A stretch of 64,000 nucleotides of DNA. Source: Bacteroidota bacterium (GTDB lineage Bacteria > Bacteroidota > Ignavibacteria > UBA10030 > JAZGDE01). The stretch covers positions 1,287-65,286 of the forward strand of contig JAZGDE010000015.1 in NCBI GenBank assembly GCA_036477295.1. The letters are read 5' to 3'. Below the pieces are notes generated by a model. The model ran no database searches and was not told the origin of the DNA. It was given only the letters and a program-made list of their open reading frames with translations. This document shows, piece after piece, positions 49,089 to 63,496 of this stretch. Position numbers and translations under genes: made by a program. Positions within the stretch are counted from its first letter, which is position 1; each line of letters begins with the position of its first letter.

Positions 49089-49922
49089 ATGACGAATGCT
49101 GCCTGCATTCTTCTTGTTTTCCTCAGTCTCAGAGGAGCATTGTTCGCTGCTTTTGAGCCGCGGGAAATTGGTGCACGGGTCGCCGGGATAGGCGGCGCGT
49201 TCGTCGGAGTTGCGAGGGATGCCTGGTCCACGTTCCGTAATCCATGCGGTCTCTCACAACTTGGGACGAGGGAGCTATCTGTCTCTCATTCTCCAGCGTT
49301 GTTCGGTCTGAGAGAATTGGCTTTCGGCGCTTTTGTTTACGCTCACCCGACTAGAGTAGGGTTCTTCGCACTCTCGGCCAGTCGGTTTGGATTTGAGCTG
49401 TACAACGAAACGACCGTCTCTGTTTCCTATTCCAACTCCTATCATCGAACCGTTGCTTTGGGCTTCACTCTGCGATATCATCATCTTGAGATCGAGCGCT
49501 ACGGTTCGGCTGTGGCGTTTGGGTTCGATGCGGGAATCCTGATTGGACTCTCGGAACAGCTGCACGCTGGATTTTTCGTGAGAAACATCAACGCTCCGAC
49601 GATCGGCTTGGCGAAAGAACGACTACCCCAGGTGTACTCGACAGGCATCAGTTACATGCCTGTCAACAGACTCATCATTCTTGTCGACCTCGAAAAGGAT
49701 GTGCGCTTTCCGGCGTCTGTGAAGGCGGGCGTGGAATATCGGCCTCTTGAATTCCTCGCCTTTCGCACTGGACTCGCCACGGTACCATCCAGAGGAACAG
49801 CAGGCGTAGGAATTCAATATTCACGTTTCGCTTTCGACTACGCTGTGCAGGCCCATCCTGAACTCGGTCTCACCCATCAATTTTCTGTCTCCGTGTCATT
49901 TGATTCACTCAGAGATTCATGA
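49089..49922 (+). CDS. PorV/PorQ-like outer-membrane beta-barrel protein
   Basis: Signal peptide, then 'IGARVAGIGGAFVGVARDAWSTFRNPCGL'. The pattern is recalled for the PorV/PorQ family. Confidence 0.55.
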   Translation: MTNAACILLVFLSLRGALFAAFEPREIGARVAGIGGAFVGVARDAWSTFRNPCGLSQLGTRELSVSHSPALFGLRELAFGAFVYAHPTRVGFFALSASRFGFELYNETTVSVSYSNSYHRTVALGFTLRYHHLEIERYGSAVAFGFDAGILIGLSEQLHAGFFVRNINAPTIGLAKERLPQVYSTGISYMPVNRLIILVDLEKDVRFPASVKAGVEYRPLEFLAFRTGLATVPSRGTAGVGIQYSRFAFDYAVQAHPELGLTHQFSVSVSFDSLRDS

Positions 49923-51934
49923 TGCGATGGTTGCTTACTTGGATCCTGTTGAGCATCTGCTCGTTGTACACCAGTTCCGCACAGGAGGAATTCGGGAGCG
50001 ACCCGGGCTTTGAGGCATCCTCCGAGATGGAAAGACTTCTTGAAGGGGGGACACAAGACGAGGAAGAAATCGAGCTTGCTGATCTCGTCGGCGGTTTGGA
50101 GCATCAAGCTCTTGAGCTCAATGAAGCGGGCGTGCAGGAGCTGGAGATCCTTCCGGGCATGAGTCCATTTCTTGCCAGAGAGATTGTCCTCCAGAGAAGC
50201 CGCTCGGCCGGATTCCGGTTAGTGGATGACCTGCTTGCCGTTCCGGGGATGAGCCGTGAGGTTTTTCGTTCGATACGACCGTTCGTCTTTGTTCGTGAGA
50301 ATCCCGTCCGTCGCGTTCCGCCGAACAGCCTTTGGAAGAGACTATCCGTTCGCGCTCGGATTCGCATCTCCCATGACCTGCAGAAGAAAAGGGGTTTTCA
50401 GGACGGCAGGTATCAGGGATCGCGTCCGAGGGTGTATCAACGATTTATGCTCTCTTCTCCACGTCGATTGGAAGCTGGCCTCCTTTTGGAGAAAGACCAG
50501 GGAGAACGTGAAGCGAACGATTTTCTGTCCGGGTACCTGCAGTTGCAGGGTCTGCTCAGATTTTCCAGTCTCGTCCTTGGCGATTATCAAATCGAAGCGG
50601 GGCAGGGCGTTGTTCTGTGGGGAAGGGCTGGCATATCCAGAGGTGGCGATCCGATTGCGTTTGCGAAAAAATCCTCTCGTGGAATCATCCCCTACCGATC
50701 TGTCGACGAGAATAGATTTCTTCGAGGTCTTGCGGGAACTTTCAAATTCGGCAACTTTGAGATGATGGGATTCTACTCGTACAACCGTCTCGATGCTCTC
50801 GTGAGAGAAGGCGTTATCTTCGGATTTCCGACCACGGGCTATCACCGTACGCCGAACGAAATGTCTCAGAGGAGAGCGGCTCGAGAGAGGGTCCTCGGTG
50901 GGAGAGTGATCTACTGGTTCAACGAGCAATCTCATCTTGGGGTGACGGCCTACACTGCCGAGTTCGATAGGCCCATCTCGCCCGACAAACTTCACCGGGG
51001 CCTGGCCCGGCGGTCCAGCGTGATCGGCGTCGATTTTGAGAGTTCAGGCGAAACTCTAAGCCTGTTCGGAGAGTGGGCTCGCGCTCGGAACGGAGCTTCC
51101 GGAGGGGTGACCGGGGTGATTCTCGGACTCGAACACGTGGTAGCGGTATCACTTCTATTTCGGTCAAATCCGAAAATGTTGCTCAGCAGTCACGGGTTAG
51201 TAGCTCGTCAGAGCAGTGGTGACGCGAACAATGACTGGGGTGTGTATTTTGGCCTTCGGGTGAGACCGACGAACTCCGTTGTGCTATCAGCATATTTCGA
51301 TTTATTCAGGCCTCGTAAGACAGGATCTAGGAGTCCGTTTCCGAGTTGGGGACATGAATCATTCCTGCAGGGAGACATTAGTCTGCGAAGATATATCCGG
51401 ATGTCGGTACGCTATGATTTCGACTCGCAAGTGGACAGCTATCCCACCATCGATGATCACGGGCGAGAATCCCGTGTGCTCGTCGACCGTTCGAAGCGAA
51501 ACCTCAGGCTTACGTTTGTCTATGAGGTAGGACGGCAGCTCATGATCCGAAGCCGCGCGGAGCTTGTGCAAGTCACTCTTGGCCGTGCATTGTCAAATGA
51601 GAGTGGTATGCTATTTTATCACGAGGTAAAGTTCAGGCCTGACCAACGAACCGCTCTGCAAGCAAGGGTGATCTTTTTTGATACTGACTCATTCGATTCG
51701 CGACTGTATGAATTTGAGAGTGACGTGCGCGGAGCTTTTTCCAACCCGGGGCTCTTCGGTCGAGGGAGGCGTTGGTATGTGCTTGTTCGCTACAAAATTA
51801 CCGGGTTCCTTGAGCTTTCCGCGAAGTACGCCGAGACCTATCGCGACGATGTGAAGACAATAGGCTCTGGCGCTGCGGAAATTCTTAGCAACATCAAGAG
51901 CCGAGCAAATTTCCAGCTAGACGTGAAATTATAG
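49919..51934 (+). CDS. helix-hairpin-helix (ComEA-type) domain fused to a large predicted outer-membrane beta-barrel
   Basis: Signal peptide 'LLTWILLSICSLYTSSAQ'. HhH pair 'LNEAGVQELEILPGMSPFLAREIV...LLAVPGMSREVFRSIRPFV' (about nt 50110-50290). About 540 aa of alternating beta-strand-like sequence follow, ending 'ANFQLDVKL'. ATGA overlap with the upstream gene. Confidence 0.7.
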   Translation: MMRWLLTWILLSICSLYTSSAQEEFGSDPGFEASSEMERLLEGGTQDEEEIELADLVGGLEHQALELNEAGVQELEILPGMSPFLAREIVLQRSRSAGFRLVDDLLAVPGMSREVFRSIRPFVFVRENPVRRVPPNSLWKRLSVRARIRISHDLQKKRGFQDGRYQGSRPRVYQRFMLSSPRRLEAGLLLEKDQGEREANDFLSGYLQLQGLLRFSSLVLGDYQIEAGQGVVLWGRAGISRGGDPIAFAKKSSRGIIPYRSVDENRFLRGLAGTFKFGNFEMMGFYSYNRLDALVREGVIFGFPTTGYHRTPNEMSQRRAARERVLGGRVIYWFNEQSHLGVTAYTAEFDRPISPDKLHRGLARRSSVIGVDFESSGETLSLFGEWARARNGASGGVTGVILGLEHVVAVSLLFRSNPKMLLSSHGLVARQSSGDANNDWGVYFGLRVRPTNSVVLSAYFDLFRPRKTGSRSPFPSWGHESFLQGDISLRRYIRMSVRYDFDSQVDSYPTIDDHGRESRVLVDRSKRNLRLTFVYEVGRQLMIRSRAELVQVTLGRALSNESGMLFYHEVKFRPDQRTALQARVIFFDTDSFDSRLYEFESDVRGAFSNPGLFGRGRRWYVLVRYKITGFLELSAKYAETYRDDVKTIGSGAAEILSNIKSRANFQLDVKL

Positions 51935-51935
51935 C

Positions 51936-51994
51936 AACCGACCCGTCCCGACGACTTACGGTCTCGAAGAGAAATCGGGATCACCAGATCGGAT
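51936..51994 (+). repeat. 59-nt nested-hairpin element, copy A (degenerate)
   Basis: 53/59 identical, with no gaps, to 61411-61469. It starts 2 nt after the TAG stop at 51932-51934. Confidence 0.8.
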
Positions 51995-52306
51995 TTCGAC
52001 CTTATAGTCAACTTGGGTTAACCTTTCGCCATCCCCCCAGATTCAACCTGGGCCAGTGGCCTGCCAAAATGATTCGTCCGTCTGTCCCCGTGGACTCGCG
52101 CTCCGGGGAGCGGCGGATCCCACGATCAGGCTGAACTACCAGCGATCAGATTTGATCTGATGGCTGGCTTCGTCATCAAGACCAACACCCCATTGAATAC
52201 CCTCCGTTGGCCTGCGCGTCGACCATGTCCGTCTCCATACTAATGTCTACAATAAGCGGGATCCCGTAAAGCGGGACTCGGTCGAGGTGTTGATAACGCA
52301 TCTTCA

Positions 52307-52335
52307 TTGAATATCCCCGGATTTTTTGATATCTT
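52307..52335 (+). promoter_or_regulatory. sigma70-type promoter (extended -10) upstream of mnmA
   Basis: TTGAAT 52307-52312, 17-nt spacer ending in TGa, TATCTT 52330-52335. This supports ATG 52356 as the start. Confidence 0.5.
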
Positions 52336-52355
52336 CATGTTGTTTGAGAATAAAC

Positions 52356-53465
52356 ATGGTTGAGAATCACTCAGATACGACTGTCATTGTTGGAATGAGC
52401 GGTGGCGTGGATTCCTCCGTTGCCGCTGCATTACTCCTTGAGCAGGGCTACAGGGTCATTGGTGTGACGATGAAGACGTACGCCTTTGACGAGGTGGGCG
52501 GAAACATCGGCAACGAAACGAGCTGCTGCGGCCTGGATGCGATCAATGATGCACGGATGGTTGCAGCGAAGCTTGGCATACCGCACTATGTTCTGGATTT
52601 CACTGAACAATTCCGGCGTGAAGTCATCAATAATTTCATCGAAGAGTACATCCATGGCAGAACACCGAACCCGTGTGTTATCTGTAATCGTGAGATTAAG
52701 TGGGGGGAACTGATTCAGAAGGCTGAAGCTCTGGGAGCTGATTTCTTGGCAACAGGGCACTACGCTCGTGTACGATTTGACGAGTCGCGAAACCGGTACA
52801 TCATTTCGCGGGCCAAGTATGCAAGCAAAGACCAGTCGTATGCGCTGTGGGGGTTGTCGCAGCATGCCATCAGCAAGACGATCTTTCCGCTCGGTAGGTT
52901 AACGAAGCCAGAAGTCCGCAAGATAGCTGAAGAGCTTGGGCTAAAAACTGCGGCGAAGCAGGAGAGTTACGAGATTTGTTTCGTGGCCGATGATAATTAC
53001 GAGCGCTTCCTCATGGAGCAAGTCCCGAATCTCAAGGCAGGAGTCGTCGGTGGCGATCTCGTTTTTGATGGGAAGGTCGTTGGCAAGCATCGTGGGTTTC
53101 CATTCTACACTATTGGTCAGCGCAGGGGGATGGGTGCTTTCGGTGAGCGTGCCTATGTCACGCGGATTGACAGCGAAACCAATACGATCTACGTTGGTCG
53201 TGAATCCGACCTGATGCATCGCGGTCTGATCGCATCAAACGTGAATCTGATAGCGCTCGAGGGACTTCGTGAGCCGCTCCGCGTTACCGCCAAGGTGCGC
53301 TACAAGGATACCCTGAGTTTCGCTACCTTGAATCCGGAGGGAGATGGCAAGATTCGTGTTGTTTTCGATGAGCCGAAGCGTGCGATTACCCCAGGACAGT
53401 CGGTCGTGTTCTATGACGGTGACGATGTGGTGGGAGGTGGGGTGATTGACACAGTTATTGCCTAG
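52356..53465 (+). CDS. mnmA: tRNA 2-thiouridine(34) synthase
   Basis: PP-loop 'VGMSGGVDSSVAA' and 'NPCVICN'. Confidence 0.92.
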   Translation: MVENHSDTTVIVGMSGGVDSSVAAALLLEQGYRVIGVTMKTYAFDEVGGNIGNETSCCGLDAINDARMVAAKLGIPHYVLDFTEQFRREVINNFIEEYIHGRTPNPCVICNREIKWGELIQKAEALGADFLATGHYARVRFDESRNRYIISRAKYASKDQSYALWGLSQHAISKTIFPLGRLTKPEVRKIAEELGLKTAAKQESYEICFVADDNYERFLMEQVPNLKAGVVGGDLVFDGKVVGKHRGFPFYTIGQRRGMGAFGERAYVTRIDSETNTIYVGRESDLMHRGLIASNVNLIALEGLREPLRVTAKVRYKDTLSFATLNPEGDGKIRVVFDEPKRAITPGQSVVFYDGDDVVGGGVIDTVIA

Positions 53466-53634
53466 TTATCAACAGCCCAGAGTGCGGCGCGTAACAGGTG
53501 CAAGAACGGTAAGTCCTGCCCTTGTGGGATGGATGCCCAAATGGCGCTAAAGGCCCGACTTCGTTTTCGCTGGAACGATATACGATATCAATAGTGAACG
53601 TGCGTTAGGGACATTTGCAAGAAAGGCCTCGTCC

Positions 53635-53799
53635 ATGACAGTTGCGGCAGCAACCTTTGGAATCCTGGGATTCACCTTTGGATTGCTAGCATTTGCTCAA
53701 GTTTCTTCGGTCAGGAAAGACCTGGAGCAATTGAAAGCGGAGATTCAAAAAGCAAAGAGACCAGCGCACCCTGTCAAGAAGGGGCGTAGTGCCCTATAA
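53635..53799 (+). CDS. possible 54-aa single-pass membrane protein (below the ORF-track size cutoff)
   Basis: 'MTVAAATFGILGFTFGLLAFAQVSSVRKDLEQLKAEIQKAKRPAHPVKKGRSAL'. One TM helix plus a basic tail; GAAAGG lies 8 nt upstream. No homology evidence. Confidence 0.35.
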   Translation: MTVAAATFGILGFTFGLLAFAQVSSVRKDLEQLKAEIQKAKRPAHPVKKGRSAL

Positions 53800-53928
53800 G
53801 CTGAATCTTCCGCCTAGTGTGGATTACTCGTCCGAATGCATGAGTCGTGGTGAAGTGTGATTAGTTCGAAGTCGACTTTGGACATGGAGGATGAGCGTGG
53901 GATTTCCAACATCGAGGGCACGATACCA

Positions 53929-54377
53929 ATGATCCGGCCACAAATGATCGGACATGTTCATCTCAAGGTCCGGGACCTCAAGCGCTGGGAAAGGTTTTAT
54001 ACCGAAGTGCTCGGCTTCGCTATTTCAGAGCGCGTCGGAGGCTTCCTGTCACTTACGTGCAGTAGTCGTCATCATGACGTAGCTCTTCAGGAAATTGGTC
54101 ATGATGCGGAGGCCCCATTGGTCATGCCGTCGGACTCTACCATTTCGCTATAGAGCTTGAAGACCTTCACGCATTGGCGGATGCGTACGTGCGACTTGAG
54201 GAAGCCGGTGTCGATTTTTCCCCAGTCGACCACGGGATCAGTCAAGCGCTTTACTTCTCGAATCCGGATGGAAACGGCATAGAGCTCTACGTGGACACGC
54301 GCTCCGTACGGAAAGAGTGGCGCGGCATCTCAACCCCGATCGATACCGACAAACTGCTTGCCTTACGAATGGGGTGA
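53929..54377 (+). pseudogene. VOC (glyoxalase/extradiol dioxygenase-like) family gene with one frameshift
   Basis: 'MIGHVHLKVRDLKRWERFYTEVLGF' (ORF 53857..54153) continues in another frame as 'GLYHFAIELEDLHALADAYVRLEEAGV...GNGIELYVD' (ORF 54174..54377 and upstream). The shift is at the GGCCCC run, 54111-54116. Confidence 0.7.
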
Positions 54378-54435
54378 GATAGCGTTTAAAGAGATTCGAG
54401 CGGACAAGCTCGCAATTCAAAATACCAGACGCTCT

Positions 54436-54813
54436 ATGGATCGGTTCTTTTTCGTCCTCGGGTCAATCTCGGCATTCATCGGGGTTGGTGTCGGTGCATT
54501 TGGTGCTCACGCGCTCCGCGAAAAACTCTCACCCGAGCTGCTCAATGCGTTCGAAGTGGGGGTGAGGTACCAGATCTACCACGCCTTGGCGATGCTGGCC
54601 GTTGCATGGGCGGCGTCGCACTGGCCTTCCTCGAACGTAGCCGTCGCTGGATGGCTCTTTTTCGCCGGCACTGTTTTGTTCTCCGGAAGTCTGTATGCTC
54701 TGAGTCTCACCGGTCTGCGGTGGTTAGGATTGGTGACCCCGGTGGGTGGATTAATGTTCCTCGCGGGCTGGTTATATGCGGCTTGGGTCATTTTCCGTAC
54801 CACAGTCACATGA
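54436..54813 (+). CDS. DUF423-family membrane protein
   Basis: 'GVGVGAFGAHAL' and 'RYQIYHALA', with four TM helices. ATG 54436 lies in ORF 54358..54813. Confidence 0.8.
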   Translation: MDRFFFVLGSISAFIGVGVGAFGAHALREKLSPELLNAFEVGVRYQIYHALAMLAVAWAASHWPSSNVAVAGWLFFAGTVLFSGSLYALSLTGLRWLGLVTPVGGLMFLAGWLYAAWVIFRTTVT

Positions 54814-54854
54814 GCAACCGGTCGTAATAACTGACTAAAGGAGGTAGCGCCTAC

Positions 54855-55316
54855 ATGTTAGACCTGATTAAGCAGTTTTTCGGGACGAGTATGGCTGTTG
54901 TTGAGGACTCGCAGAGAGAGGAGAATATCGAGGACAGACTCCCACTTGCGACGTGTGCACTCCTTCTTGAAATGGCGCACGCTGATCAGGAATTCAGTGA
55001 AGTGGAAAAGAACACCATTATCTCTCTCCTGGCAGCGCAATTCCATCTGTCAGACGAAGTGGTGAATGATCTCATGAGGGTGGCGGAGAAAGAGCGACGG
55101 GAGAGCACAGACCTCTGGGGGTTCACGCATTTGATCGACGCGCGTTACTCCGAAAAACAGAAGGTCAAGGTGGTGGAAATCCTCTGGAGAGTCGTCTACT
55201 CAGACGGTAAAGTCGATATGCATGAAGAATACCTCGTCCGGAAGCTCTCCTACCTTCTTGGTCTCAAGCACGAACAGCTGATCGAGGCGAAGCTGAGAGC
55301 AATGGGTAAAGCCTGA
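54855..55316 (+). CDS. TerB-like (tellurite-resistance TerB family) protein
   Basis: 'ALLLEMAHADQEFSEVEK' and 'ILWRVVYSDGKVDMHEEYLVRKLSYLLGL'. Confidence 0.7.
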   Translation: MLDLIKQFFGTSMAVVEDSQREENIEDRLPLATCALLLEMAHADQEFSEVEKNTIISLLAAQFHLSDEVVNDLMRVAEKERRESTDLWGFTHLIDARYSEKQKVKVVEILWRVVYSDGKVDMHEEYLVRKLSYLLGLKHEQLIEAKLRAMGKA

Positions 55317-55344
55317 GGGCTCCTAATCCCGCGATCGAACTTTC

Positions 55345-55743
55345 ATGGTTTCCATCCGCAGGATAATCGAAACCTGCATCTACGTCGCCGACCTCGATCG
55401 GTCGGAACGCTTCTATCGTGACGTTATCGGTCTTCGGGTTGTGCAGAAAAATGAAGGCCGGGATCTCTTCTTTGCAGCGGGGACTTCAATGCTCATGGTG
55501 TTCTACGCGCCGGAGACGCGCAAGGGAGGATTCTTACCACCGCACGGCACGGAAGGGTCGTCTCATTTTGCGTTTGAAATCGATCCAGGGGATCTTGATG
55601 CATGGAAGCGTCATCTTTTGGATTTTGCTGTTTCGATCGAGAGCGAGGTCACCTGGCCCCATTCACAGCACCGATCGATCTACATTCGTGACCCCGACGG
55701 AAATCTTGTTGAATTCATTGCGCGGGGCGTTTGGCCAGTTTGA
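55345..55743 (+). CDS. VOC-family (glyoxalase/bleomycin-resistance) protein
   Basis: 'IETCIYVADLDRSERFYRDVIGL' and 'SIYIRDPDGNLVEF'. Confidence 0.8.
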   Translation: MVSIRRIIETCIYVADLDRSERFYRDVIGLRVVQKNEGRDLFFAAGTSMLMVFYAPETRKGGFLPPHGTEGSSHFAFEIDPGDLDAWKRHLLDFAVSIESEVTWPHSQHRSIYIRDPDGNLVEFIARGVWPV

Positions 55744-55771
55744 ATCCTCACTCAATCATCAACAGTGTAGC

Positions 55772-55789
55772 CGCAACCTTTAGGTTGCG
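55772..55789 (+). terminator. short hairpin after the VOC gene (no U-tract)
   Basis: CGCAACC 55772-55778, loop TTTA, GGTTGCG 55783-55789. Confidence 0.3.
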
Positions 55790-56015
55790 TAGTTGCTGAG
55801 TGGTTCATCAATAACAAAGAGAGCGTTCAGCCGACAACACATTTTTTCCTGCGAGCCGGTGACTTTGCTGATGAACACCAAGAAAGCGCAATACAACAGC
55901 TGTGGCCTTCAGGTACAGCCTGTTTCTTTGATTCTCTAGCCCTCTTTCTCTATATTGACGATCAGAGGACTCCCGGACTCGATTCTCACCTATCACATTC
56001 TGAAATTTTTTCCCT

Positions 56016-57563
56016 ATGTCGAAAGACAAACTGCAACAACTTCGCGAGCTGAAGAAGCAAGCTCAGCTCGGCGGTGGAAAGGAACGAATCGAAGAGCAGC
56101 ATAAGAAGGGAAAACTTACCGCTCGCGAACGATTGGACGTGCTGCTGGATGAGAGGAGCTTTGAAGAAATCGATGCTCTCGTAAAACATCGATCCCGCGA
56201 TTTCGGCCTGGAGAAGCAGCATTATCTCGGCGACGGTGTGGTGACAGGGAGCGGAACAATCGACGGTCGGCTCGTCTTCGTCTTCAGCCAGGATTTCACG
56301 GTGTTTGGCGGTTCGCTATCAGAAGCCCACGCGGAAAAAATCTGCAAGATCATGGACATGGCGATGAAGGTCGGTGCGCCGGTCATCGGTCTCAATGATT
56401 CCGGCGGTGCTCGGATTCAGGAAGGTGTAGCCAGCCTTGGAGGCTACGCAAATATCTTCTTGAGAAACACGCTTGCCTCCGGGGTTGTACCTCAGATATC
56501 CGCCATCATGGGACCCTGTGCTGGTGGGGCCGTTTATTCGCCGGCAATCACCGATTTCGTCTTCATGGTGAAGAACACAAGCTACATGTTTGTGACCGGG
56601 CCACATGTCGTGAAGACCGTGACGCATGAAGACGTGTCGTTCGAGGATCTCGGTGGAGCCTTGACCCATGCCACGAAGAGCGGCGTGGCCCATTTTGCAT
56701 CCGAGAACGAGATCGACTGCCTTCAAATGGTCAGAACCCTCTTCAGCTATATCCCGTCCAATAATCTTGATGACCCGCCCTACGTCAAGTCAGATGATGA
56801 CCCGAATCGCGTGGAGTCGCGGTTAAGTTCCATCGTTCCGGATAATCCGATAAAACCGTACGATATGAAAGAGATTATCAAGCTCGTGGTTGACGACGGC
56901 AAATTTTTCGAGGTTCATGAACTCCACGCGCAAAATCTCGTCGTCGGATTTGCCCGACTCGGTGGAAAGTCTGTGGGGATTGTTGCTAACCAGCCTTCGG
57001 TGCTTGCCGGCGTCCTGGACATTGACTCTTCCATCAAGGGAGCACGGTTTATCCGCTTTTGCGACGCGTTCAATATTCCCCTGGTGGTCTTTGAAGATGT
57101 CCCCGGGTTCTTGCCCGGAACGGATCAGGAGTGGCGCGGAATCATCAAAAATGGCGCGAAGCTGCTCTACGCCTTCTGCGAGGCGACGGTGCCGAAGATT
57201 ACAGTGATCACGCGAAAGGCTTACGGGGGCGCGTATGACGTGATGAACTCGAAGCATATTCGCGGCGACTTTAACTTTGCGTGGCCGTCAGCGGAGATCG
57301 CCGTCATGGGTCCCAAAGGGGCGGTGGAGGTCATCTTCCGCAAGGAAATCGAAAAAGCAGCGGACAGGGAAAAATCGATCCAAGAAAGAGAGCTTGAGTA
57401 TCGCGAAAAATTTGCCAATCCGTACATTGCAGCCGAGCGGGGGTACATCGACGACGTCATCGAGCCTAGCGAGACGCGGCCCCGGCTGATTCGTTCCCTC
57501 CAAGTTCTTGAGAACAAAGTCGACAGGAATCCCAAGAAGAAACACGGCAATATGCCGTTATGA
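56016..57563 (+). CDS. acyl-CoA carboxylase carboxyltransferase (beta) subunit, methylmalonyl/propionyl-CoA type
   Basis: '[14 protein letters not shown]', '[14 protein letters not shown]' and '[15 protein letters not shown]'. Confidence 0.9.
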
Positions 57564-57771
57564 GTTGCGCCTTCCCCCGCCAATATGCCGCGAGGTCTGC
57601 CAGGAAGTCTGGAGGATTGTCCGGAACTTACCGTCGGAGTCCAACCCTTATCGGGTCGGTACTCTGCTGAACTCGGAGACGAAGTCCTGCGCAAAGTGCC
57701 TCTCAGCGACATAATTTTTCTCGTAATCGCTTCAATAGCTGCAACTTTCCGCGTCCAGCTTAAGAATTTCC

Positions 57772-57799
57772 TTGACTTTCCCTACTAAACCTCTATATT
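57772..57799 (+). promoter_or_regulatory. sigma70-type promoter upstream of the lytic transglycosylase
   Basis: TTGACT 57772-57777, 16-nt spacer, TATATT 57794-57799. Confidence 0.5.
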
Positions 57800-57842
57800 T
57801 GATGGCTAATTGTATCCTTATTCACTCAGTACAACGTGATAG

Positions 57843-60050
57843 ATGGATAAGAAAATACGGCTTCTTCTTCTCATACTACCTCCCTTCATTCTGTTCGGTT
57901 GCTCCTCACACCAGTCAGCAAAGATTTCCTCATCATCCCCAGTCAATCCTCCTCTTGATTCCACCGCGGAGCAGCAAGCGCCGGCAAGTGTTGTCCCGGA
58001 CTCTGTGGTAGAGAATCTCGAACCGGACACCGCATTGACCGTTCGGGAAGTGATCACGCAGAAAATGGAAGAAGCACGTCTTCACTACCGTGCGGCCCTG
58101 GATGCACAAGCTGCCGGGGACTCGATGCTTTCCTCGCAGGAGTTCGAAGAGGCGATCGAAGTTCTCAACGCGCTCAGCTACTATCCGGAAGCGGAGGAGA
58201 ATGAGGAATTTGACGACCTGATCCAGAGCGTTATCGAGGATTACGAACGGTACATCGCTTCCATCGACGAACTGGGTCCGGAAAGCTCTGTATTTGCACT
58301 ACGAGAAAAATTGAATCAGATCGTTGAATTGATCGATATCAGCGGGATTAGGATTCCGAAGAGAATCTTCAAGGGAACGCAGGTTCCCTTCGTCGTGAAT
58401 GAGCATGTGGAGCGCAACGTTGCTTTCTACCTGACAAAAGGGAAGGAGCATTTGGAGCTGTGGTTGTACCGCTCCGGTAAGTACTTTCCGCATATGAAAA
58501 GGATTTTTCAAGAAGAAGGAGTGCCCGAAGAGTTAGTGCATCTCTCGATGATGGAAAGCGGGCTGAATCCTGCTGCCCGATCCTGGATGAGGGCGGTGGG
58601 CCAATGGCAGTTCATGAGAGGAACAGGACGACTTTACGGATTGAAAGGAAATTGGTGGTATGATGAACGGAGGGACTTTGAGAAGTCGACCCGAGCGGCA
58701 GCTCGACTCCTGAAGGATCTCTACGAGCGCTTCGACGACTGGTATCTTGCCATCGCGGCGTACAATTCTGGAGCCGGGCGGATCAACAGGGCAATCCGGC
58801 GCAGCGGCTCGAAGGATTTCTGGACCATGCGTCGATACCTACCACGTCAAACTCGAAACTTCGTCCCACAATACCTGGCTGTCGCCATGATGGCGATGAG
58901 TCCAGAGGAGTTCGGGTTCCAAGGAATTACGCCCGCACCTGCTCTCGAGTTCGACATGGTCACGATCGATGACTGCGTTGATCTGACTGTGCTTGCAAAG
59001 GCCGCAGAAACAGACGTTGAAACGATCCACGAGCTGAATCCGGAGCTCCTCCGGTGGTCCACGCCACCCGGATACAGAGGCTACGGTTTGAGGATTCCAA
59101 AGGGGAAAGCGGATATTTTTGCTTCCAATTATGCCGAGATTCCCGACGATCAGAAGCGAGACTGGGTGGTCCATCGCGTCCGGCGAGGCGAAACGTTGAG
59201 CGGGATCTCCAAGAAGTACGGCATCTTAATGGGGTTGATCCTCGAAACGAACAAGATAAGAAATAAACATCGGCTTTCTGTGGGACAGACGATTGTGATT
59301 CCCGTGCCAGTGGGCTCTGCCCGATATGCTGGGCGGGTCAGTAGAGCGAAGCCAGAGCGTCGAAGGGCGAAGGCGAGAACCGTGTCCAGAAAGGCCTCCT
59401 CAAAGCAGCTGGCGTATGCGGACAAAGCGAAAGTGCTCTACCGCATCCGTCGGGGTGACACCATTGGGCACATCGCTGAGTGGTTTGACACCCGCGCCAG
59501 CCGAATCCGGATGTGGAACGACATCCCGTACGGGAGTATTATTCGAGAAAATGAGCAGCTTGTCATCTGGGTGCCAGAGAGGAAACATTCGGACTATGAG
59601 AAGCTGAACGACTTCTCATTCGAGGAAAAGCAGCGTCTCGAGAGCGGGGAAGTTGCTGAACAGCGGTCGAATGCGTCAAAGTCTCGATCGGGTCATTGGG
59701 TGGACTACAAGGTGCGATGGGGTGACACGCTTGGCGAAATCGCGGCGATGTTTGGGAGTAGTGTTGACGACCTGAAATCGTGGAACGGGCTCCGTTCGAA
59801 CAAGATCAAAGCGGGCCAAACGTTGCTTGTCTTGGTTGGTGAAAAAGAGTCGAATGGCACTGTCGCCACAAACGGAAGAGACAGTTCAGAGCATTCGTAT
59901 GTTCTCCACAAGGTCCGAAAGGGAGAATCATTGTACACGATCGCAAGACTGCACGGTGTCTCGATCCGGGAGGTTCAGGACTGGAACCAATTGCGGAGTT
60001 CACGCATCTACGCAGGGCAGGAATTACGAATCTACAACGTCCGCGGGTGA
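57843..60050 (+). CDS. MltD-like lytic transglycosylase lipoprotein with four LysM domains
   Basis: Lipobox 'ILFGCSS' and SLT core 'MMESGLNPAARSWMRAVGQWQFM'. LysM repeats begin 'HRVRRGETLSGIS', 'YRIRRGDTIGHIA', 'YKVRWGDTLGEIA' and 'HKVRKGESLYTIA'. Confidence 0.88.
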   Translation: MDKKIRLLLLILPPFILFGCSSHQSAKISSSSPVNPPLDSTAEQQAPASVVPDSVVENLEPDTALTVREVITQKMEEARLHYRAALDAQAAGDSMLSSQEFEEAIEVLNALSYYPEAEENEEFDDLIQSVIEDYERYIASIDELGPESSVFALREKLNQIVELIDISGIRIPKRIFKGTQVPFVVNEHVERNVAFYLTKGKEHLELWLYRSGKYFPHMKRIFQEEGVPEELVHLSMMESGLNPAARSWMRAVGQWQFMRGTGRLYGLKGNWWYDERRDFEKSTRAAARLLKDLYERFDDWYLAIAAYNSGAGRINRAIRRSGSKDFWTMRRYLPRQTRNFVPQYLAVAMMAMSPEEFGFQGITPAPALEFDMVTIDDCVDLTVLAKAAETDVETIHELNPELLRWSTPPGYRGYGLRIPKGKADIFASNYAEIPDDQKRDWVVHRVRRGETLSGISKKYGILMGLILETNKIRNKHRLSVGQTIVIPVPVGSARYAGRVSRAKPERRRAKARTVSRKASSKQLAYADKAKVLYRIRRGDTIGHIAEWFDTRASRIRMWNDIPYGSIIRENEQLVIWVPERKHSDYEKLNDFSFEEKQRLESGEVAEQRSNASKSRSGHWVDYKVRWGDTLGEIAAMFGSSVDDLKSWNGLRSNKIKAGQTLLVLVGEKESNGTVATNGRDSSEHSYVLHKVRKGESLYTIARLHGVSIREVQDWNQLRSSRIYAGQELRIYNVRG

Positions 60051-60194
60051 GACCGCTCGACGAACGCTCTTTCGCAGCCGGGAACGAAAGATCCAGCCAC
60101 TTTCTAGCGGAACTTTCCTTCTACTAGAAGACATCGAGACGTTTCAGGACCTCATAGAGCTTTGCCTTCGCTGTCGAGACTCTTGTTGGATGTG

Positions 60195-60221
60195 GCCTCG
60201 TTTCTTTTTGACGGGGCTTTA
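60195..60221 (+). terminator. putative intrinsic terminator
   Basis: GCCTCGT 60195-60201 pairs with ACGGGGC 60211-60217 (one G-U), followed by TTTATT. Confidence 0.45.
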
Positions 60222-60262
60222 TTGTCTGCATGAAAGGGGACAACAATTTCAAAGTCTAGGGG

Positions 60263-60688
60263 ATGCGCTTCAACGAAGGTCGGGAAGTAACGCCGTTCGA
60301 ACCGGACCGCTCACTTGCGACGATTGATACCTCCCAGGGATGGAGGTTTCTCTACGACGGCAATCCCTTTGACGGTATTATTCGTTCTGGCTTCAAGCAG
60401 CCACAGGACCTGACCTACTCTTCGAACAGCCGCTACATCTTTGTGGTCGACTCGGGGACCGACAGTCTCTACCAGTTTACCTCGATCGGCGTCGAGGGAA
60501 TCAGTCCGCCCGTATTCTCCCAGGAGCAAAAGAATATCATCGTGTCATTCGGCGGGGAAGGGGACGGGAATAAGCAGTTCCCTGATCCTTTCGGCGTGGC
60601 GTACTATGAGCCCGATAAGATCGTGCTGGTCGCAGACCGGGGCAACAACCGGATCGTTCGCTTCAAGCTCTCCACAGATTTTCAGTAA
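60263..60688 (+). CDS. short NHL-repeat-like protein, possibly a fragment of a beta-propeller gene
   Basis: Two NHL-like units: 'FKQPQDLTYSSNSRYIFVVDSGTDSLYQF' and 'FPDPFGVAYYEPDKIVLVADRGNNRIVRF'. There is no signal peptide, and there are too few blades for a propeller. Confidence 0.5.
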   Translation: MRFNEGREVTPFEPDRSLATIDTSQGWRFLYDGNPFDGIIRSGFKQPQDLTYSSNSRYIFVVDSGTDSLYQFTSIGVEGISPPVFSQEQKNIIVSFGGEGDGNKQFPDPFGVAYYEPDKIVLVADRGNNRIVRFKLSTDFQ

Positions 60689-60833
60689 TAGTCAAAGGCA
60701 TAGTCACGCTGAAGGTAGCGAAGGATCTAATCCATTTCAAGAGGTAGATTCTTCGTTAGTGGGTTATACCTTCCTCCAAGAGGTGCGTCGTTGAAGATGA
60801 CGTCTCCAGTATTGCCGGGATGTTCGACGAGAA

Positions 60834-61361
60834 TCACGCGGGATACTTCTTCGAGCTGACGATAGACACCCGATACCAGTACTCACGGTGGATGTAGTGC
60901 GTAATGAGCGCAGTTAGTGATTGGACAAGCGAGGATGGCACAACGATGTAGAGGCGGTGTGGCTCATTATTCTCTTTGTTTTCTAAGTCAAGGTACAAGT
61001 TGTATTGTGTAAGGGCATCTTCAGTATCAAGCTCTTTCTCAGTTGCTCGCACGACTCCGATGGCGTAGCGGTGCGCTTTTGGGTCGAAACCCACGACGTC
61101 TGGGTACTTGTTCTCCTGATCGCCGAACCCCGTGTTTTTGATCACCGTCGGACGCTGATATCCTTCGAGGGCTGTCGCGGATTTAATCTCAAAGCCTTCG
61201 CGAGATAAGCAGTCGGCGAGTTCCTGCAGAAGGCCAACATACTTTGGATCTTGAAGACGATCTGCGTGCAGCATGTGAAAGTAGTTTTCCGTACCGATTC
61301 TTACCGAGAGGCCCCGAGAGAAATTAGGTAAACTCTGAGGGAAAATCAAGGTCGCCGCCAC
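60834..61361 (-). CDS. hypothetical protein
   Basis: 175-aa ORF with a GTG start. No firm motif. 'YPDVVGFD..(17)..VVRATEKE' is only faintly PD-(D/E)xK-like. Confidence 0.5.
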   Translation of the reverse strand: MAATLIFPQSLPNFSRGLSVRIGTENYFHMLHADRLQDPKYVGLLQELADCLSREGFEIKSATALEGYQRPTVIKNTGFGDQENKYPDVVGFDPKAHRYAIGVVRATEKELDTEDALTQYNLYLDLENKENNEPHRLYIVVPSSLVQSLTALITHYIHREYWYRVSIVSSKKYPA

Positions 61362-61410
61362 AGGCGGCAGGAGCCTTGCGTCGCACGAATATGAATGGAG
61401 TGCCTGTAGT

Positions 61411-61469
61411 AACCGACCCGTCCCGACGAACTACGGTCTCGTAGAGAAGTCGGGACCACCAGATCGGTT
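61411..61469 (+). repeat. 59-nt nested-hairpin element, copy B (fully paired)
   Basis: Three nested stems: AACCGA/TCGGTT (6 bp), GTCCCGAC/GTCGGGAC (8 bp) and CTACG/CGTAG (5 bp). TTTTT follows at 61476-61480. It lies between divergent ORFs. Confidence 0.8.
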
Positions 61470-61522
61470 GGATGGTTTTTGTGTCTCCTGGCTAGACGTG
61501 ACGTTGTCGAGGCGGAGTCCGC

Positions 61523-62017
61523 ATGTCCAGTTTTCAAGGAAGAATCATGGCCAAGGTCTCCAGAAAGCGAGGTGGGGAGGTCGCAGATGAGCAGAAGACT
61601 CGTGGTGAAATCGAAAGAATACTTGCTGGTAGGCATCACCTGAATGCCCAAACGTTAACCGTCCTTCAAGACCTCCGTCAGGCAAAGCGTCTCAGCGAAG
61701 CGCAATGGCAGAGGCTGGGGTCTGAAGTGTACGAAAAGAAGTTGCTCGAACATCTCGAAGACGCATGCCTCATGGAGCTAGAGCGGAACTTCCTCGACGA
61801 CCTGGCGAAACCCTTTCACTTATCGCACGAAGAGGTACCGCGGATTCGACGAGCGAATGCTCCGGAAGCCATCAAGAAATTGTTCCGGCATGCCTTCGAG
61901 GACCGCTATTTGAGCTTACAAGAAAAAAGTGAGTTGTTTCAACGGGGCGAATGTATGGGCTTGACGGCAGAATTCGTGGAAACATTTCTTGCCGCTCAAA
62001 GCAAAGCGCGCGAATGA
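61523..62017 (+). CDS. hypothetical helical protein
   Basis: 164-aa ORF with charged, helix-prone sequence. No motif recognised. Confidence 0.5.
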   Translation: MSSFQGRIMAKVSRKRGGEVADEQKTRGEIERILAGRHHLNAQTLTVLQDLRQAKRLSEAQWQRLGSEVYEKKLLEHLEDACLMELERNFLDDLAKPFHLSHEEVPRIRRANAPEAIKKLFRHAFEDRYLSLQEKSELFQRGECMGLTAEFVETFLAAQSKARE

Positions 62018-62044
62018 TACTATCGCGAACGGCGACGTCTCTCC

Positions 62045-62073
62045 TTGACATTCTTCAGTCAAATCTCTACTTT
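62045..62073 (+). promoter_or_regulatory. sigma70-type promoter upstream of the receiver-domain gene
   Basis: TTGACA 62045-62050, 17-nt spacer, TACTTT 62068-62073. Confidence 0.45.
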
Positions 62074-62090
62074 AATCAGGTTCTTTTGTC

Positions 62091-62513
62091 ATGCAGCTAG
62101 AGTCTGGAGCGTCACGGGAGGACAGCTTGACACAAGGGAAGAGAATTCTCCTCGTAGAGGATGAACAGTCGATTGCGCTGGTCTTGAAGGGAGTGATCAC
62201 GGAGCTAGGATACGATGTCCGTGTTGCTTATTCGGGAGAAGAGGCGCTCGATACATTGAAGGAATTGGAAGTGGACCTGGTGATCACTGACATCAAGATG
62301 CCGGGGATGGACGGGTTCGAGTTGATTCAGACGTTGCAAGAGAATGCCAAGTACGCGAGAATGAATTTCGTGATCCTAACTGCCTTCAACGACGAGGAAG
62401 CGATCGCCAAAGCGAAGAAAGACTATGGGATCGAGTATTATATCACCAAACCGTTCGATTTGCGCAATCTCGAAGCTGCGGTTGTAGACATCATGAAGTC
62501 GCTATCGACGTAG
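62091..62513 (+). CDS. stand-alone response-regulator receiver domain (CheY-like)
   Basis: 'ILLVEDE', 'DLVITDIKMPGMDG', 'ILTAF' and 'YITKPF'. No output domain. Confidence 0.88.
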   Translation: MQLESGASREDSLTQGKRILLVEDEQSIALVLKGVITELGYDVRVAYSGEEALDTLKELEVDLVITDIKMPGMDGFELIQTLQENAKYARMNFVILTAFNDEEAIAKAKKDYGIEYYITKPFDLRNLEAAVVDIMKSLST

Positions 62514-62599
62514 CTGTTGGACTGGACTGAGGGGAAGCTCCCGTCAGTACCTCTCCTTGCGTAACCTGCTCACCACCTCGCATCAGGAGCACTCCGAGT

Positions 62600-62911
62600 T
62601 CATCTCAGAGAGTGGGCGCACTGGGGGCAAGAAGCCTCCAGGTTGATCAAAGCGTTCATACTATTCCGCGTCGGCGCTGAAAAGAGATTGATTCCCTGAA
62701 GCAAACTTGCCTTCGCAGGATTGACAAATGGGTCAGCGAGTGGGTCGTCGAATGCAATCGCGAGATTCCCCATGCCCCGAGCAAGCGACGGATGAAACTC
62801 CGATTGATTGCTCGCGATCACCGGCACGGTCCGTAGATGGATCGACTGTGCGATAAGTAAACACGTAAATGTCAGGAATAGGAATGCAAAGAAAAGGCTG
62901 TTCGTTTTCAT
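62600..62911 (-). pseudogene. N-terminal fragment of a secreted/outer-membrane protein
   Basis: Signal peptide 'MKTNSLFFAFLFLTFTCLLIAQS', then ~80 aa ('GNLAIAFDDPLADPFVNPAKASLL'). The ORF ends 86 nt from the convergent gene, leaving no room for a full-size barrel. Confidence 0.4.
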
Positions 62912-63035
62912 TGGAGCCTCCACAAGAAATGGGACTTACAAACATCCAACAGACTTTCCATGCCTTGTTTTTTTCCCAGCAAGTAACGTGCTGGCAAGAT
63001 GGGTTGCTGGTTCAGCGGCCTTTCGATGGTACGCT

Positions 63036-63443
63036 TTATTTCGCACCTAATGCTTCGGCAGCTCTCTCGACGTTCGAAGCGTCAACCCAGAGAATAGATC
63101 CGTAACTTCCCGCAACCGTAATGGCGTGGATAGCACGGATATTGATGCCAGCTTGCGAAAGGGCTTCCAAAGGCTTTAGAAACGCGCCGGTGCGGTCTGC
63201 GCCCTTGACAAGAAAGCCTGTACCTTCTTCGGCAAGCAGCCCGGATGCTCTCCAGGAATTTCTCAACTTGTCCGGATTCTTGGCCACCACATACAGTTGT
63301 GCCCTTCCCTCCTGAGTTGCAAATCCCCAAAGTCCCGTCAGACCGAGGCTGTTCGCTTTCAGGTCTTGCATGACCTTCAGCAGAGCACCCGGCTGATCTT
63401 CGAGGTTTGCGACGAAATACGTAACGCGACCGACTTTCGGCAT
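63036..63443 (-). CDS. tandem ACT-domain (ligand-binding) protein
   Basis: 'YFVANLEDQPGALLKVMQDL' and 'FLVKGADRTGAFLKPLEALSQAGINI' form two ACT-like beta-alpha-beta-beta-alpha-beta units. Confidence 0.65.
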   Translation of the reverse strand: MPKVGRVTYFVANLEDQPGALLKVMQDLKANSLGLTGLWGFATQEGRAQLYVVAKNPDKLRNSWRASGLLAEEGTGFLVKGADRTGAFLKPLEALSQAGINIRAIHAITVAGSYGSILWVDASNVERAAEALGAK

Positions 63444-63496
63444 ACGAACCTCCTTTTCGAACAGTGGTAAATGTTGGGATTTGTTTCTTATCTGTT

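What the first reader, a model, noticed from the sequence alone, without database searches (positions are those of the whole stretch)
61411..61469. 59-nt triple-nested hairpin element in a divergent intergenic region (intact copy)
**Seen in sequence.** The element reads AACCGA-ccc-GTCCCGAC-gaa-CTACG-gtct-CGTAG-agaa-GTCGGGAC-caccaga-TCGGTT. This gives 19 Watson-Crick pairs in three coaxial stems with asymmetric internal loops. TTTTT follows 7 nt downstream. A second copy lies 9.4 kb away at 51936-51994 and is 53/59 identical without gaps.

**Context.** The element sits between the divergently oriented hypothetical genes 60834..61361(-) and 61523..62017(+). I could not find a convincing promoter for it.

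**Inference.** It does not resemble any RNA family I can name from memory. Candidates are a REP/MITE-like palindromic unit, a protein-binding operator, a small RNA, or a terminator/5'-UTR module.
Basis: seen in the sequence. Interest (0 to 1): 0.6.

Follow-up and report, generated by a model that had tools for sequence, protein, structure and literature searches.

The report
REP-like palindromic repeat of Ignavibacteria
The 59-base nested hairpin is one copy of a small, GTAG-tagged palindromic repeat scattered through this Ignavibacteria genome and its relatives, best read as an ordinary "selfish" repeat of the REP kind rather than a dedicated regulatory RNA, although this particular family has not been described before.

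Summary
The 59-nt element (61411-61469) has three nested stems, and a 53/59-identical copy lies at 51936-51994. It is not a two-copy oddity. The genome (an Ignavibacteriales MAG) holds about 10-14 copies and a sister species holds 13.

All copies carry a G(T/C)AG(T/C) head next to a conserved outer stem. The interior hairpin can be swapped, even between orthologous sites of the two species. The interior holds a 21-nt core, TCTCTACGAGACCGTAGGTCG on the minus strand. This core occurs patchily in 30 of 277 genomes of the order, usually inside palindromes. It also sits in frame inside real genes (PolB, MutY/Nth, MiaB-like, and here an M6-like peptidase).

Covariation is not significant, and Rfam has no match. 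The ortholog of the finding's copy in the sister species carries stem-breaking changes.

In a related genome, a frameshifted IS200-like Y1 transposase gene is flanked by hairpins with the same CTGTAGTA head. This genome keeps only a truncated Y1 frame.

Best reading: a decaying, non-autonomous GTAG-type REP/BIME-like repeat. A secondary role as a 5'-leader hairpin is possible, because 10 of 12 sites point toward the downstream gene, but it is unproven.

The parts
61406..61410 (+). GTAGT head (the GTAG tag of the repeat), unpaired, directly 5' of the outer stem
   Evidence: G000 heads are GTAG(T/C) at 5 sites (C20a, C65, C70a, C54, C106b), GCAG at 2 (C70b, C111), and CTAG and ATAG at 1 each. 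G001 heads: GTAGT at C96:1353, C2, C79, C389 x2; GCAG at 3; one each of CTAG, GTAA and GCTG.
61411..61469 (-). The 59-nt nested palindrome (intact copy). The minus strand is the better-folding strand: 9+8+5 pairs including G-U.
   Evidence: -31.6 vs -25.6 kcal/mol; covariance-model hit of 88.4 bits at G000:C20:62689-62758(-)
61411..61419 (.). Outer-stem arm (pairs with 61461-61469). Together with the head it forms the conserved 'shell' of the repeat.
   Evidence: The shell is kept while the interior is swapped at three orthologous sites.
61461..61469 (.). Outer-stem arm (partner of 61411-61419)
61420..61456 (.). Exchangeable interior: middle stem GTCCCGAC/GTCGGGAC around the inner hairpin
   Evidence: module swaps between G000 and G001; A-U to C-G double changes at one pair of the middle stem in 4 sequences
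61427..61447 (-). 21-nt core TCTCTACGAGACCGTAGtTCG (1 mismatch to the order-wide core TCTCTACGAGACCGTAGGTCG). It contains the CTACG-N4-CGTAG mini-hairpin.
   Evidence: G000:C20:62713-62733, 1 mismatch
61476..61480 (+). TTTTT run after this copy only; not part of the repeat
   Evidence: absent after all other copies
51931..51994 (-). Second, decayed copy. Its head ATAGC overlaps the TAG stop codon of the 671-aa frame 49919..51934. Its core at 51952-51972 has 2 mismatches.
   Evidence: The G001 ortholog keeps the head and right end but has an unrelated interior.
60834..61361 (-). Downstream open frame on the strand on which the element folds best (hypothetical protein; the true start is possibly the ATG near 61275)
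61523..62017 (+). Divergent neighbour (hypothetical protein; the ortholog in G001 starts at MAKVSRKRG, i.e. 61548)

Best explanation
The element is one copy of a non-autonomous, GTAG-headed palindromic DNA repeat of the REP/BIME kind, specific to Ignavibacteriales.

**Architecture (shown).** It has two layers.
- A conserved shell: the head CTGTAGTA plus the outer stem AACCGA...TCGGTT.
- An exchangeable interior hairpin. In this copy the interior carries a 21-nt core (TCTCTACGAGACCGTAGGTCG on the minus strand) that is spread patchily through the order.

**Proposed mechanism (inferred).** In single-stranded DNA, the hairpin and its adjacent GTAG head are recognised by a Y1 (HUH) transposase of the IS200/RAYT superfamily. 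This enzyme cuts and rejoins at the hairpin foot. That would account for:
- dispersal to unrelated sites;
- nested insertions;
- replacement of the interior within a fixed shell;
- occasional in-frame landings inside genes.

**State in this genome.** The only Y1 frame is truncated, so the copies are fossils that drift. The copy at 61411 is still intact. The copy at 51936 and the sister-species ortholog of 61411 have stem-breaking changes.

**What is shown:** multi-copy family, head, shell/interior architecture, module swaps, patchy distribution, in-frame intragenic copies, no significant covariation.

**What is inferred:** the Y1 enzyme as the mover; the absence of any dedicated cellular function. 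When co-transcribed, the minus-strand hairpin may incidentally influence the neighbouring mRNA.
For: **Copy number.**
- 8 full plus 2-3 partial copies in the 1.7-Mb genome, plus 4 head+stem copies with other interiors.
- 13 hits in the same-genus genome G001.

**Head.** G(T/C)AG(T/C) lies directly before the stem in nearly all copies.

**Unrelated neighbours.** The adjacent genes include cinA, prmA, an M28 peptidase, pcm, an EF-G-like gene and hypothetical genes.

**Module swaps between orthologous sites of G000 and G001, with flanks 93-100% identical.**
- C70a, C70b.
- Window copy 2.
- A 25-nt hairpin indel at C54.
- A second repeat family is nested in the internal loop at C65 and C70a/b.

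**Gain or loss.**
- The G001:C79 copy lies in an intergenic stretch that G000 fills with unrelated sequence.
- The C111 copy corresponds to a 14-aa in-frame insertion in a conserved ~1040-aa peptidase. It is absent in 8 other genera.

**The core across the order.**
- 59 exact stretches, all but two in MAGs whose submitters labelled them Ignavibacteria or Bacteroidota; two stretches are in one MAG labelled Chitinophagales.
- Present in 30 of 277 genomes and 17 of 110 genera, 1-14 copies each. The reversed-pattern control gave 0 everywhere.
- Flanks are not conserved beyond about 24 nt, but they are self-complementary more than mismatched flanks (p = 7e-5).
- The core lies in frame inside PolB, a MiaB-like gene, MutY/Nth, TolC-like and rhodanese genes.

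**Link to a Y1 transposase.**
- G171:C355 has a frameshifted IS200-like Y1 gene flanked on both sides by hairpin clusters headed CTGTAGTA/TACTACAG.
- One reads GTAGTATGCGACCCCG, 13/16 identical to GTAGTAACCGACCCGT here. A near-core lies 10 nt away.
- G266:C377 is similar.
- All 10 core-bearing genomes among 41 relatives have Y1_Tnp, against 21 of 31 without the core.

**No sign of selection on structure at this copy.**
- Covariation does not exceed shuffles.
- The G001 ortholog is 83% identical with broken pairs, while flanks are 87-94% identical.

**Published description of the kind.** The GTAG super-family is defined by a GTAG tag, complex self-complementary loops, G-T pairing, intragenic copies in replication and repair genes, and RAYT genes flanked by GTAG repeats (PMC3733652).
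Against: - Copy number (10-14) is far below the usual >100 for REPs, and the unit (59-70 nt) is longer than the classical 20-40 nt.
- No REP dimers were seen.
- In this genome and G001 the only Y1 frame is truncated and has no copy of the element next to it.
- In 9 core-rich genomes, no core lies on the same contig as a Y1 gene, apart from G171:C355. No Y1 gene lies next to the 59 core loci. The enzyme link therefore rests on one or two loci and on head similarity.
- The Y1 proteins hit only the generic IS200 model, below its cut-off. They have not been shown to be RAYTs.
- In 10 of 12 scorable sites the better-folding strand points toward the downstream gene, often 9-70 nt from its start. This hints at selection or insertion bias that a purely selfish model does not explain.
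- Classical REPs sit mostly downstream of genes (PMC3733652).
Confidence: 0.65

Rival explanations
1. It is a cis-acting RNA hairpin in the 5' leader, read on the minus strand. It would stabilise the downstream mRNA or tune its translation. In this reading the element is a (possibly exapted) regulatory module, not junk.
For: - The minus strand folds better (-31.6 vs -25.6 kcal/mol), because several pairs are G-U on that strand and C-A on the other.
- In 10 of 12 scorable sites in G000 and G001, this strand is co-oriented with the downstream gene (one-sided binomial about 0.02). At cinA, prmA and pcm the head lies only 9-26 nt before the start codon.
- Seven sites are retained between the two species.
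Against: - The downstream genes are functionally unrelated.
- Covariation is not above shuffles.
- The ortholog of this very copy has stem-breaking changes and is less conserved than its flanks.
- The interior is replaced by unrelated hairpins at three orthologous sites.
- Two copies are antisense to both neighbours and one is translated in frame.
- The order-wide core shows no orientation bias (18 vs 14) and is patchy.
- No promoter could be placed, and no RNA data were available.
Confidence: 0.15
2. It is a binding site (operator or recombination site) for a DNA-binding protein. Examples would be a regulon operator built on the CTACG-N4-CGTAG inverted repeat, or an attC/att-like site for the tyrosine recombinase whose gene starts at 63464.
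For: - The 5-4-5 inverted repeat in the core is invariant over many genomes.
- The sites are few per genome and often upstream of genes.
- The 3' end of this copy reads GTTGGAT, which fits the attC R' consensus GTTRRRY (own knowledge of attC; sequence).
- A Phage_integrase-family frame lies 2 kb away.
Against: - The conserved block is asymmetric and 21-24 nt long.
- It occurs in frame inside coding sequences.
- It is absent from most genomes of the order, and even from congeners.
- The GTTGGAT end is present in this copy only.
- Copies are scattered next to housekeeping genes, not in cassette arrays.
- The two window copies bracket housekeeping genes (mnmA, a carboxyltransferase, an LysM/SLT-domain lytic transglycosylase).
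Confidence: 0.07
3. It is a small RNA gene or an intrinsic terminator on the plus strand, as drawn by the first reader: a hairpin followed by a T-run.
For: A stable hairpin (-25.6 kcal/mol) with TTTTT starting 7 nt downstream.
Against: - The T-run follows no other copy, and it is separated from the stem by 6 nt.
- The scan for terminator-like sites did not call it.
- No gene ends upstream on the plus strand, and no promoter-like site was found.
- The plus strand is the weaker folder.
- Rfam has no match.
Confidence: 0.03

Closest known systems
GTAG-tagged REPs / BIMEs / REPINs with RAYT (Y1) transposases (Nunvar 2010, PMC2817692; Di Nocera 2013, PMC3733652; Bertels & Rainey REPINs from own knowledge)
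   Same: - An unpaired G(T/Y)AG head at one end of an imperfect palindrome.
- Sub-families with compensating stem changes and G-T pairs.
- Long, self-complementary 'loops'.
- Mosaic association with other repeats.
- Mostly extragenic, with some in-frame intragenic copies in replication and repair genes.
- In a relative, a Y1 gene flanked by hairpins with the same head.
   Different: - Only 10-14 copies per genome, and a unit of 59-70 nt.
- No dimers.
- Mostly upstream of genes rather than downstream.
- The interior carries a 21-nt core that is identical across families of an order, whereas REP sequences are usually species- or genus-specific.
- No intact partner enzyme in this genome.
- The Y1 proteins have not been shown to be RAYTs.
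Rickettsia palindromic elements (RPE; Ogata et al. 2000, own knowledge)
   Same: Palindromic selfish repeats that survive in frame inside protein-coding genes and add a short peptide. No transposase is encoded by the element itself.
   Different: RPEs are about 100-150 bp and confined to Rickettsia, with no sequence relation to this family. This family is mostly intergenic and carries a GTAG head.
Correia/NEMIS elements and ERIC/IRU-type MITEs (own knowledge)
   Same: Small palindromic repeats that sit next to gene starts, are co-transcribed, and form hairpins in leaders.
   Different: Those have defined terminal inverted repeats and target-site duplications (TA for Correia). No duplication or long terminal inverted repeats were seen here.
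Palindrome-associated transposable elements (PATEs) derived from IS200/IS605 ends (own knowledge)
   Same: Non-autonomous hairpin elements thought to be moved in trans by a Y1 transposase as single-stranded DNA, without target duplication.
   Different: PATEs keep both subterminal hairpins of a specific IS. No parent IS with these ends was found.

Membership tests
GTAG-type REP (Di Nocera 2013; Nunvar 2010) | Unpaired GTAG (or GYAG/GTRG) motif at one end of the stem-loop | tested here: met
   GTAG, GCAG, CTAG or ATAG lies directly 5' of the outer stem in all G000 copies and most G001 copies. Window coordinates 61406-61409.
GTAG-type REP (Di Nocera 2013; Nunvar 2010) | Short (20-40 bp) imperfect palindrome, stems of 6-13 bp | tested here: inconclusive
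   The stems (6-9, 8 and 5 bp) are in range, but the whole unit is 59-70 nt. It fits only if the interior counts as a long, self-complementary loop, as described for families GTAG-3 and GTAG-14 (PMC3733652).
GTAG-type REP (Di Nocera 2013; Nunvar 2010) | High copy number (usually >100 per genome) | tested here: not met
   10-14 copies in G000 (88.8% complete MAG) and 13 in G001.
GTAG-type REP (Di Nocera 2013; Nunvar 2010) | A RAYT/Y1 transposase gene flanked by the same repeats (REPtron) | tested here: inconclusive
   Own genome: only a truncated 97-aa Y1 frame, with no element beside it. Relative G171:C355: a frameshifted Y1 gene flanked by hairpins with the same CTGTAGTA head, 13/16 identical in head+stem, with a near-core adjacent. 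G266:C377 is similar. Not seen at 57 other Y1 loci.
GTAG-type REP (Di Nocera 2013; Nunvar 2010) | Frequent arrangement as inverted dimers or clusters (BIME/REPIN) | tested here: not met
   Copies in G000 are single; the nearest pair is 1.2 kb apart. Mosaics with another repeat family do occur. In other genomes the core lies in CGTAG/CTACG-rich clusters.
Rickettsia palindromic elements (RPE) | In-frame insertion in protein-coding genes | tested here: met
   A 14-aa insertion in the peptidase of G000 and G001. The core lies in frame in PolB, MiaB-like, MutY/Nth, TolC-like and rhodanese genes of other MAGs.
Rickettsia palindromic elements (RPE) | Sequence homology to the RPE families of Rickettsia | not tested
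   No RPE sequences were compared. The exact core is confined to Ignavibacteria-type MAGs among 185,579 species genomes, so membership is not claimed.
Any Rfam RNA family | Match to a curated covariance model | tested here: not met
   cmscan of 50000-64000 at E<=1 gave no hit on either copy.
Structured cis-regulatory RNA | Covariation supporting the helices | tested here: not met
   18 distinct sequences; 70.9% of cells paired versus 70.3% in shuffles; covariation score reached by 354 of 500 shuffles.
Integron attC site | R''/R' core sites (RYYYAAC...GTTRRRY) in cassette arrays next to an integron integrase | tested here: not met
   GTTGGAT occurs at the 3' end of this copy only; TAGTAAC at the 5' end does not fit RYYYAAC; copies are scattered by housekeeping genes.

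The most novel reading that the evidence does not exclude
The 21-24-nt core is the recognition module of an undescribed mobile hairpin cassette of Ignavibacteriales. This cassette would insert site-specifically into the loops of resident GTAG-headed hairpins, replacing their interior while leaving head and outer stem untouched. It would also insert in frame into genes such as PolB and MutY. The mover would be an enzyme not yet identified, not necessarily a RAYT. That would be a nested 'repeat within a repeat' mobility system, with a sequence conserved across a whole order.
Probability: 0.2. Interest if true: 0.6.

Novelty: new member of a known kind. Interest (0 to 1): 0.33.

Why it matters
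For annotating this window, it removes a candidate regulatory RNA. The hairpin, its decayed twin at 51936, and several intergenic oddities in this genome are copies of mosaic palindromic repeats.

More widely, REP-type repeats have been catalogued mainly in Proteobacteria, with a few examples in deeper phyla (PMC3733652). This is an undescribed family in Ignavibacteria. Three traits are useful for studying how such repeats move:
- a 21-nt core identical across families of an order but patchily distributed;
- clean replacement of the hairpin interior between sister species;
- tolerated in-frame copies in replication and repair genes.

These repeats also break MAG assemblies (one copy ends contig C106) and create spurious or extended open frames. 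This matters for automatic annotation of such genomes.

Tried and rejected
- **Rfam.** A scan at E<=1 gave no family on either copy.
- **Metagenome scan.** The tail pattern TCGGGRCGGGTCGGWTRCT gave 36 hits. All are chance matches in GC-rich DNA without the core.
- **REPtron in the own genome.** The only Y1_Tnp match over the Pfam cut-off (C50:10614-10823; two weaker sub-cut-off matches at C46 and C53) is truncated, and the element does not flank it.
- **Core next to Y1 genes.** None at 29 loci of relatives. None among the 59 core loci within a few hundred bases. No shared contigs in 9 core-rich genomes except G171:C355.
- **Autonomous partner gene.** Clustering the ORFs around the 59 core loci found only large paralogous families (secreted proteins, histidine kinases).
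- **Covariation test.** Not significant.
- **Promoter and terminator scans.** Nothing on the element. There is a minus-strand terminator-like hairpin at 61369-61353.
- **Empty site for the finding's own locus.** The third congener G002 has no match to the region. G002's pcm upstream region holds a different mosaic bounded by inverted GTAGTA heads.
- **Clean empty site for the G001:C79 copy.** G000 has unrelated sequence there, not a precise excision.
- **attC reading.** Rejected; see the membership test.
- **Literature.** Searches for the core sequence, and for Ignavibacteria palindromic repeats, found nothing specific.

Full report
**1. The observation**

The sequence at 61411-61469 is as described: three nested stems of 6, 8 and 5 Watson-Crick pairs, separated by asymmetric internal loops.
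- TTTTT lies at 61476-61480.
- The copy at 51936-51994 is 53/59 identical.
- The flanking open frames are 60834..61361(-) and 61523..62017(+).
- As RNA, the plus strand folds at -25.6 kcal/mol (z = -2.95).
- The minus strand folds at -31.6 kcal/mol (z = -3.97; no shuffle out of 200 is as good). Two C-A mismatches of the plus strand become U-G pairs, which gives a 9-pair outer stem.
- Copy 2 folds poorly on the plus strand (z = +0.5) and only moderately on the minus strand.

**2. It is a repeat family, not a pair**

The window is contig C20 of a 1.7-Mb, 112-contig MAG with 53% G+C. Titles of relatives' records place it in Ignavibacteria/Ignavibacteriales.

Copy number:
- BLAST and a covariance model built from the copies find eight full copies: C20 x2, C65, C70 x2, C54, C106 and C111.
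- There is also a copy cut by the end of contig C106, and a partial one on C29.
- Four more places carry the head and the start of the stem with a different interior.
- A genome of the same genus (G001) has 13 model hits.

Variants are GCAG, CTAG and ATAG.

**3. Architecture: a conserved shell and an exchangeable interior**

The constant parts are:
- the head plus the first arm, CTGTAGTAACCGACCC;
- the matching last arm, which read on the minus strand is ACCGAT...GGGTCGGTTACTAC.

Between them lie alternative hairpins.
- At C65, C70a and C70b, a hairpin of another repeat family is nested in the internal loop. That family (TCACGAAGTGACCGCTTCGCGG) has at least 13 copies in the genome. The outer arm ACCGATT therefore sits 55-75 nt further away.
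- G000 and G001 compared at orthologous sites (gene identity about 85-98%) show that the element is retained at seven sites.
- At C70a, C70b and window copy 2, the interior is replaced by an unrelated hairpin, although the flanks are 93-100% identical.
- At C54 a 25-nt hairpin is present in one species only.
- The G001 copy on C79 lies in an intergenic stretch that G000 fills with unrelated sequence.

**4. The finding's own copy is not under visible constraint**

Its G001 ortholog is 83% identical. The flanks are 87-94% identical. The ortholog has changes that break pairs in the middle and inner stems.

Over 18 distinct sequences:
- 70.9% of cells are paired, against 70.3% in column shuffles;
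- the covariation score is reached by 354 of 500 shuffles.

A few A-U to C-G double changes exist in the middle stem. They come with the alternative interiors.

**5. A 21-nt core with an order-wide but patchy distribution**

The inner part, read on the minus strand, is TCTCTACGAGACCGTAGGTCG. The finding's copy has one mismatch at 61427-61447.

- An exact 20-mer scan of one genome for each of 185,579 species gave 59 stretches. All but two are in MAGs labelled Ignavibacteria or Bacteroidota; two are in one MAG labelled Chitinophagales.
- Conservation ends abruptly outside about 24 nt.
- The two flanks of each copy are more complementary to each other than to the flanks of other copies (-13.9 vs -10.7 kcal/mol, p = 7e-5). 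Many copies lie in clusters rich in CGTAG/CTACG units.
- With up to two mismatches, the core is in 30 of 277 genomes of the order and 17 of 110 genera, at 1-14 copies. It is often present in one species and absent in a congener. The reversed-pattern control gave zero everywhere.
- Orientation relative to neighbouring genes is unbiased in this wider set.

**6. Copies inside genes**

In other MAGs the core lies in frame inside real genes:
- a family-B DNA polymerase;
- a MiaB-like radical-SAM enzyme;
- a MutY/Nth glycosylase;
- a TolC-like protein;
- a rhodanese.

It uses four of the six frames, the ones without a stop.

In this genome the C111 copy is translated (...SRVLYETAGRGDT...). It corresponds to a 14-residue insertion in a conserved ~1040-aa peptidase. 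Only G000 and G001 have this insertion; eight other genera lack it.

Window copy 2 and the copy at the end of C106 supply or overlap the TAG stop codon of the upstream gene.

**7. Link to a transposase**

- Y1_Tnp (PF01797) genes are common in the order: 31 of 41 relatives, up to 10 per genome.
- All 10 core-bearing genomes among those 41 have one, against 21 of 31 without the core (hypergeometric about 0.04, my calculation).
- G000 and G001 retain only a truncated 97-aa frame with the HUH motif and no catalytic C-terminal part. The element does not flank it.
- Core copies are generally not near Y1 genes.

There are two exceptions.
- At G171:C355, a frameshifted IS200-like Y1 gene is flanked on both sides by clusters of small hairpins headed CTGTAGTA / TACTACAG. 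One reads GTAGTATGCGACCCCG, 13/16 identical to GTAGTAACCGACCCGT here. A near-core (3 mismatches) lies 10 nt from it.
- At G266:C377, a Y1 gene is flanked by G(T/C)AGTA-headed hairpins.

This is the REPtron arrangement described for RAYTs (PMC2817692, PMC3733652). The evidence is thin: it rests on two loci.

**8. Possible RNA role**

In G000 and G001, 10 of 12 scorable sites have the better-folding minus-strand version co-oriented with the downstream gene. At cinA, prmA and pcm the head is only 9-26 nt from the start codon. This could reflect insertion bias, survival bias, or a mild benefit as a leader hairpin.

It cannot be settled here:
- no promoter could be placed;
- the genes concerned are functionally unrelated.

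**9. Verdict**

The element is a copy of a GTAG-headed, mosaic palindromic repeat of the REP/BIME kind, with RPE-like behaviour inside genes.

It meets the defining head and palindrome features. It fails the usual copy-number and dimer features. The transposase association is only partly shown.

I file it as working like a REP, and as a new member of that kind, in a phylum where such repeats have not been described.

The plus-strand small-RNA/terminator reading and the operator/att-site reading are not supported.

Noticed in passing
G000 contigs C5, C6, C8, C11, C24, C28, C36, C56, C66, C70 (x2), C80, C81 (x2): A second repeat family, TCACGAAGTGACCGCTTCGCGG, has at least 13 copies with <=2 mismatches. 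It is embedded in CTTCG/CGAAG-rich hairpin mosaics, and a copy is nested inside the internal loop of the element at C65, C70a and C70b.
   Followed up: partly
window 51916-51926 and 61491-61501: The 11-mer GCTAGACGTGA occurs exactly twice in the window: 20 nt before copy 2 and 22 nt after copy 1. That places it on opposite sides of the two copies. It may be chance or a rearranged piece of a larger unit.
   Followed up: no
window about 52213-52290 (gene-free gap before mnmA): A 70-80-nt stretch has four further 77-85% identical copies in G001 (C589, C5, C381, C2). This is another dispersed repeat in the same intergenic gap.
   Followed up: no
window 61353-61369, minus strand: A GC-rich hairpin TGCCGCCTGTGGCGGCG, followed by ACCTTGATTT, overlaps the GTG start of frame 60834..61361. 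The real start of that gene is more likely the ATG near 61275 (MLHADRL...).
   Followed up: partly
G000:C50:10614-10823 and G001:C545:1003-1215: A truncated IS200-like Y1 transposase frame (97 aa; HUH motif present, catalytic tyrosine region missing) is conserved in both species. It is followed by the perfect mini-hairpin AACCGATGAATCGGTT, whose stem equals the outer stem of the element. The same hairpin occurs at C94:30883, and the loop variant AACCGATTCATCGGTT at C74:18262.
   Followed up: partly
L121, L108, L099, L096, L075 (other Ignavibacteria MAGs): The 20-nt core lies in frame inside family-B DNA polymerase, MutY/Nth, MiaB-like, TolC-like and rhodanese genes. There it encodes LYETVGR, SLRDRRS, STYGLVEK or DLRSRRE. 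The MutY copy is part of an insertion of more than 100 residues that also contains the common 'cattgcgag' repeat.
   Followed up: partly
L135 (G002:C158) 1590-1735: In the third congener, the region upstream of pcm has no core. It has a ~150-nt mosaic bounded by inverted heads, CTGTAGTAACC ... GCTACTACGCG: a head-outside dimer of the same head type.
   Followed up: no
G000:C106:19852-19873 and C26:5982: Contigs end inside or just after copies of the head+stem. These repeats contribute to the fragmentation of the MAG.
   Followed up: no
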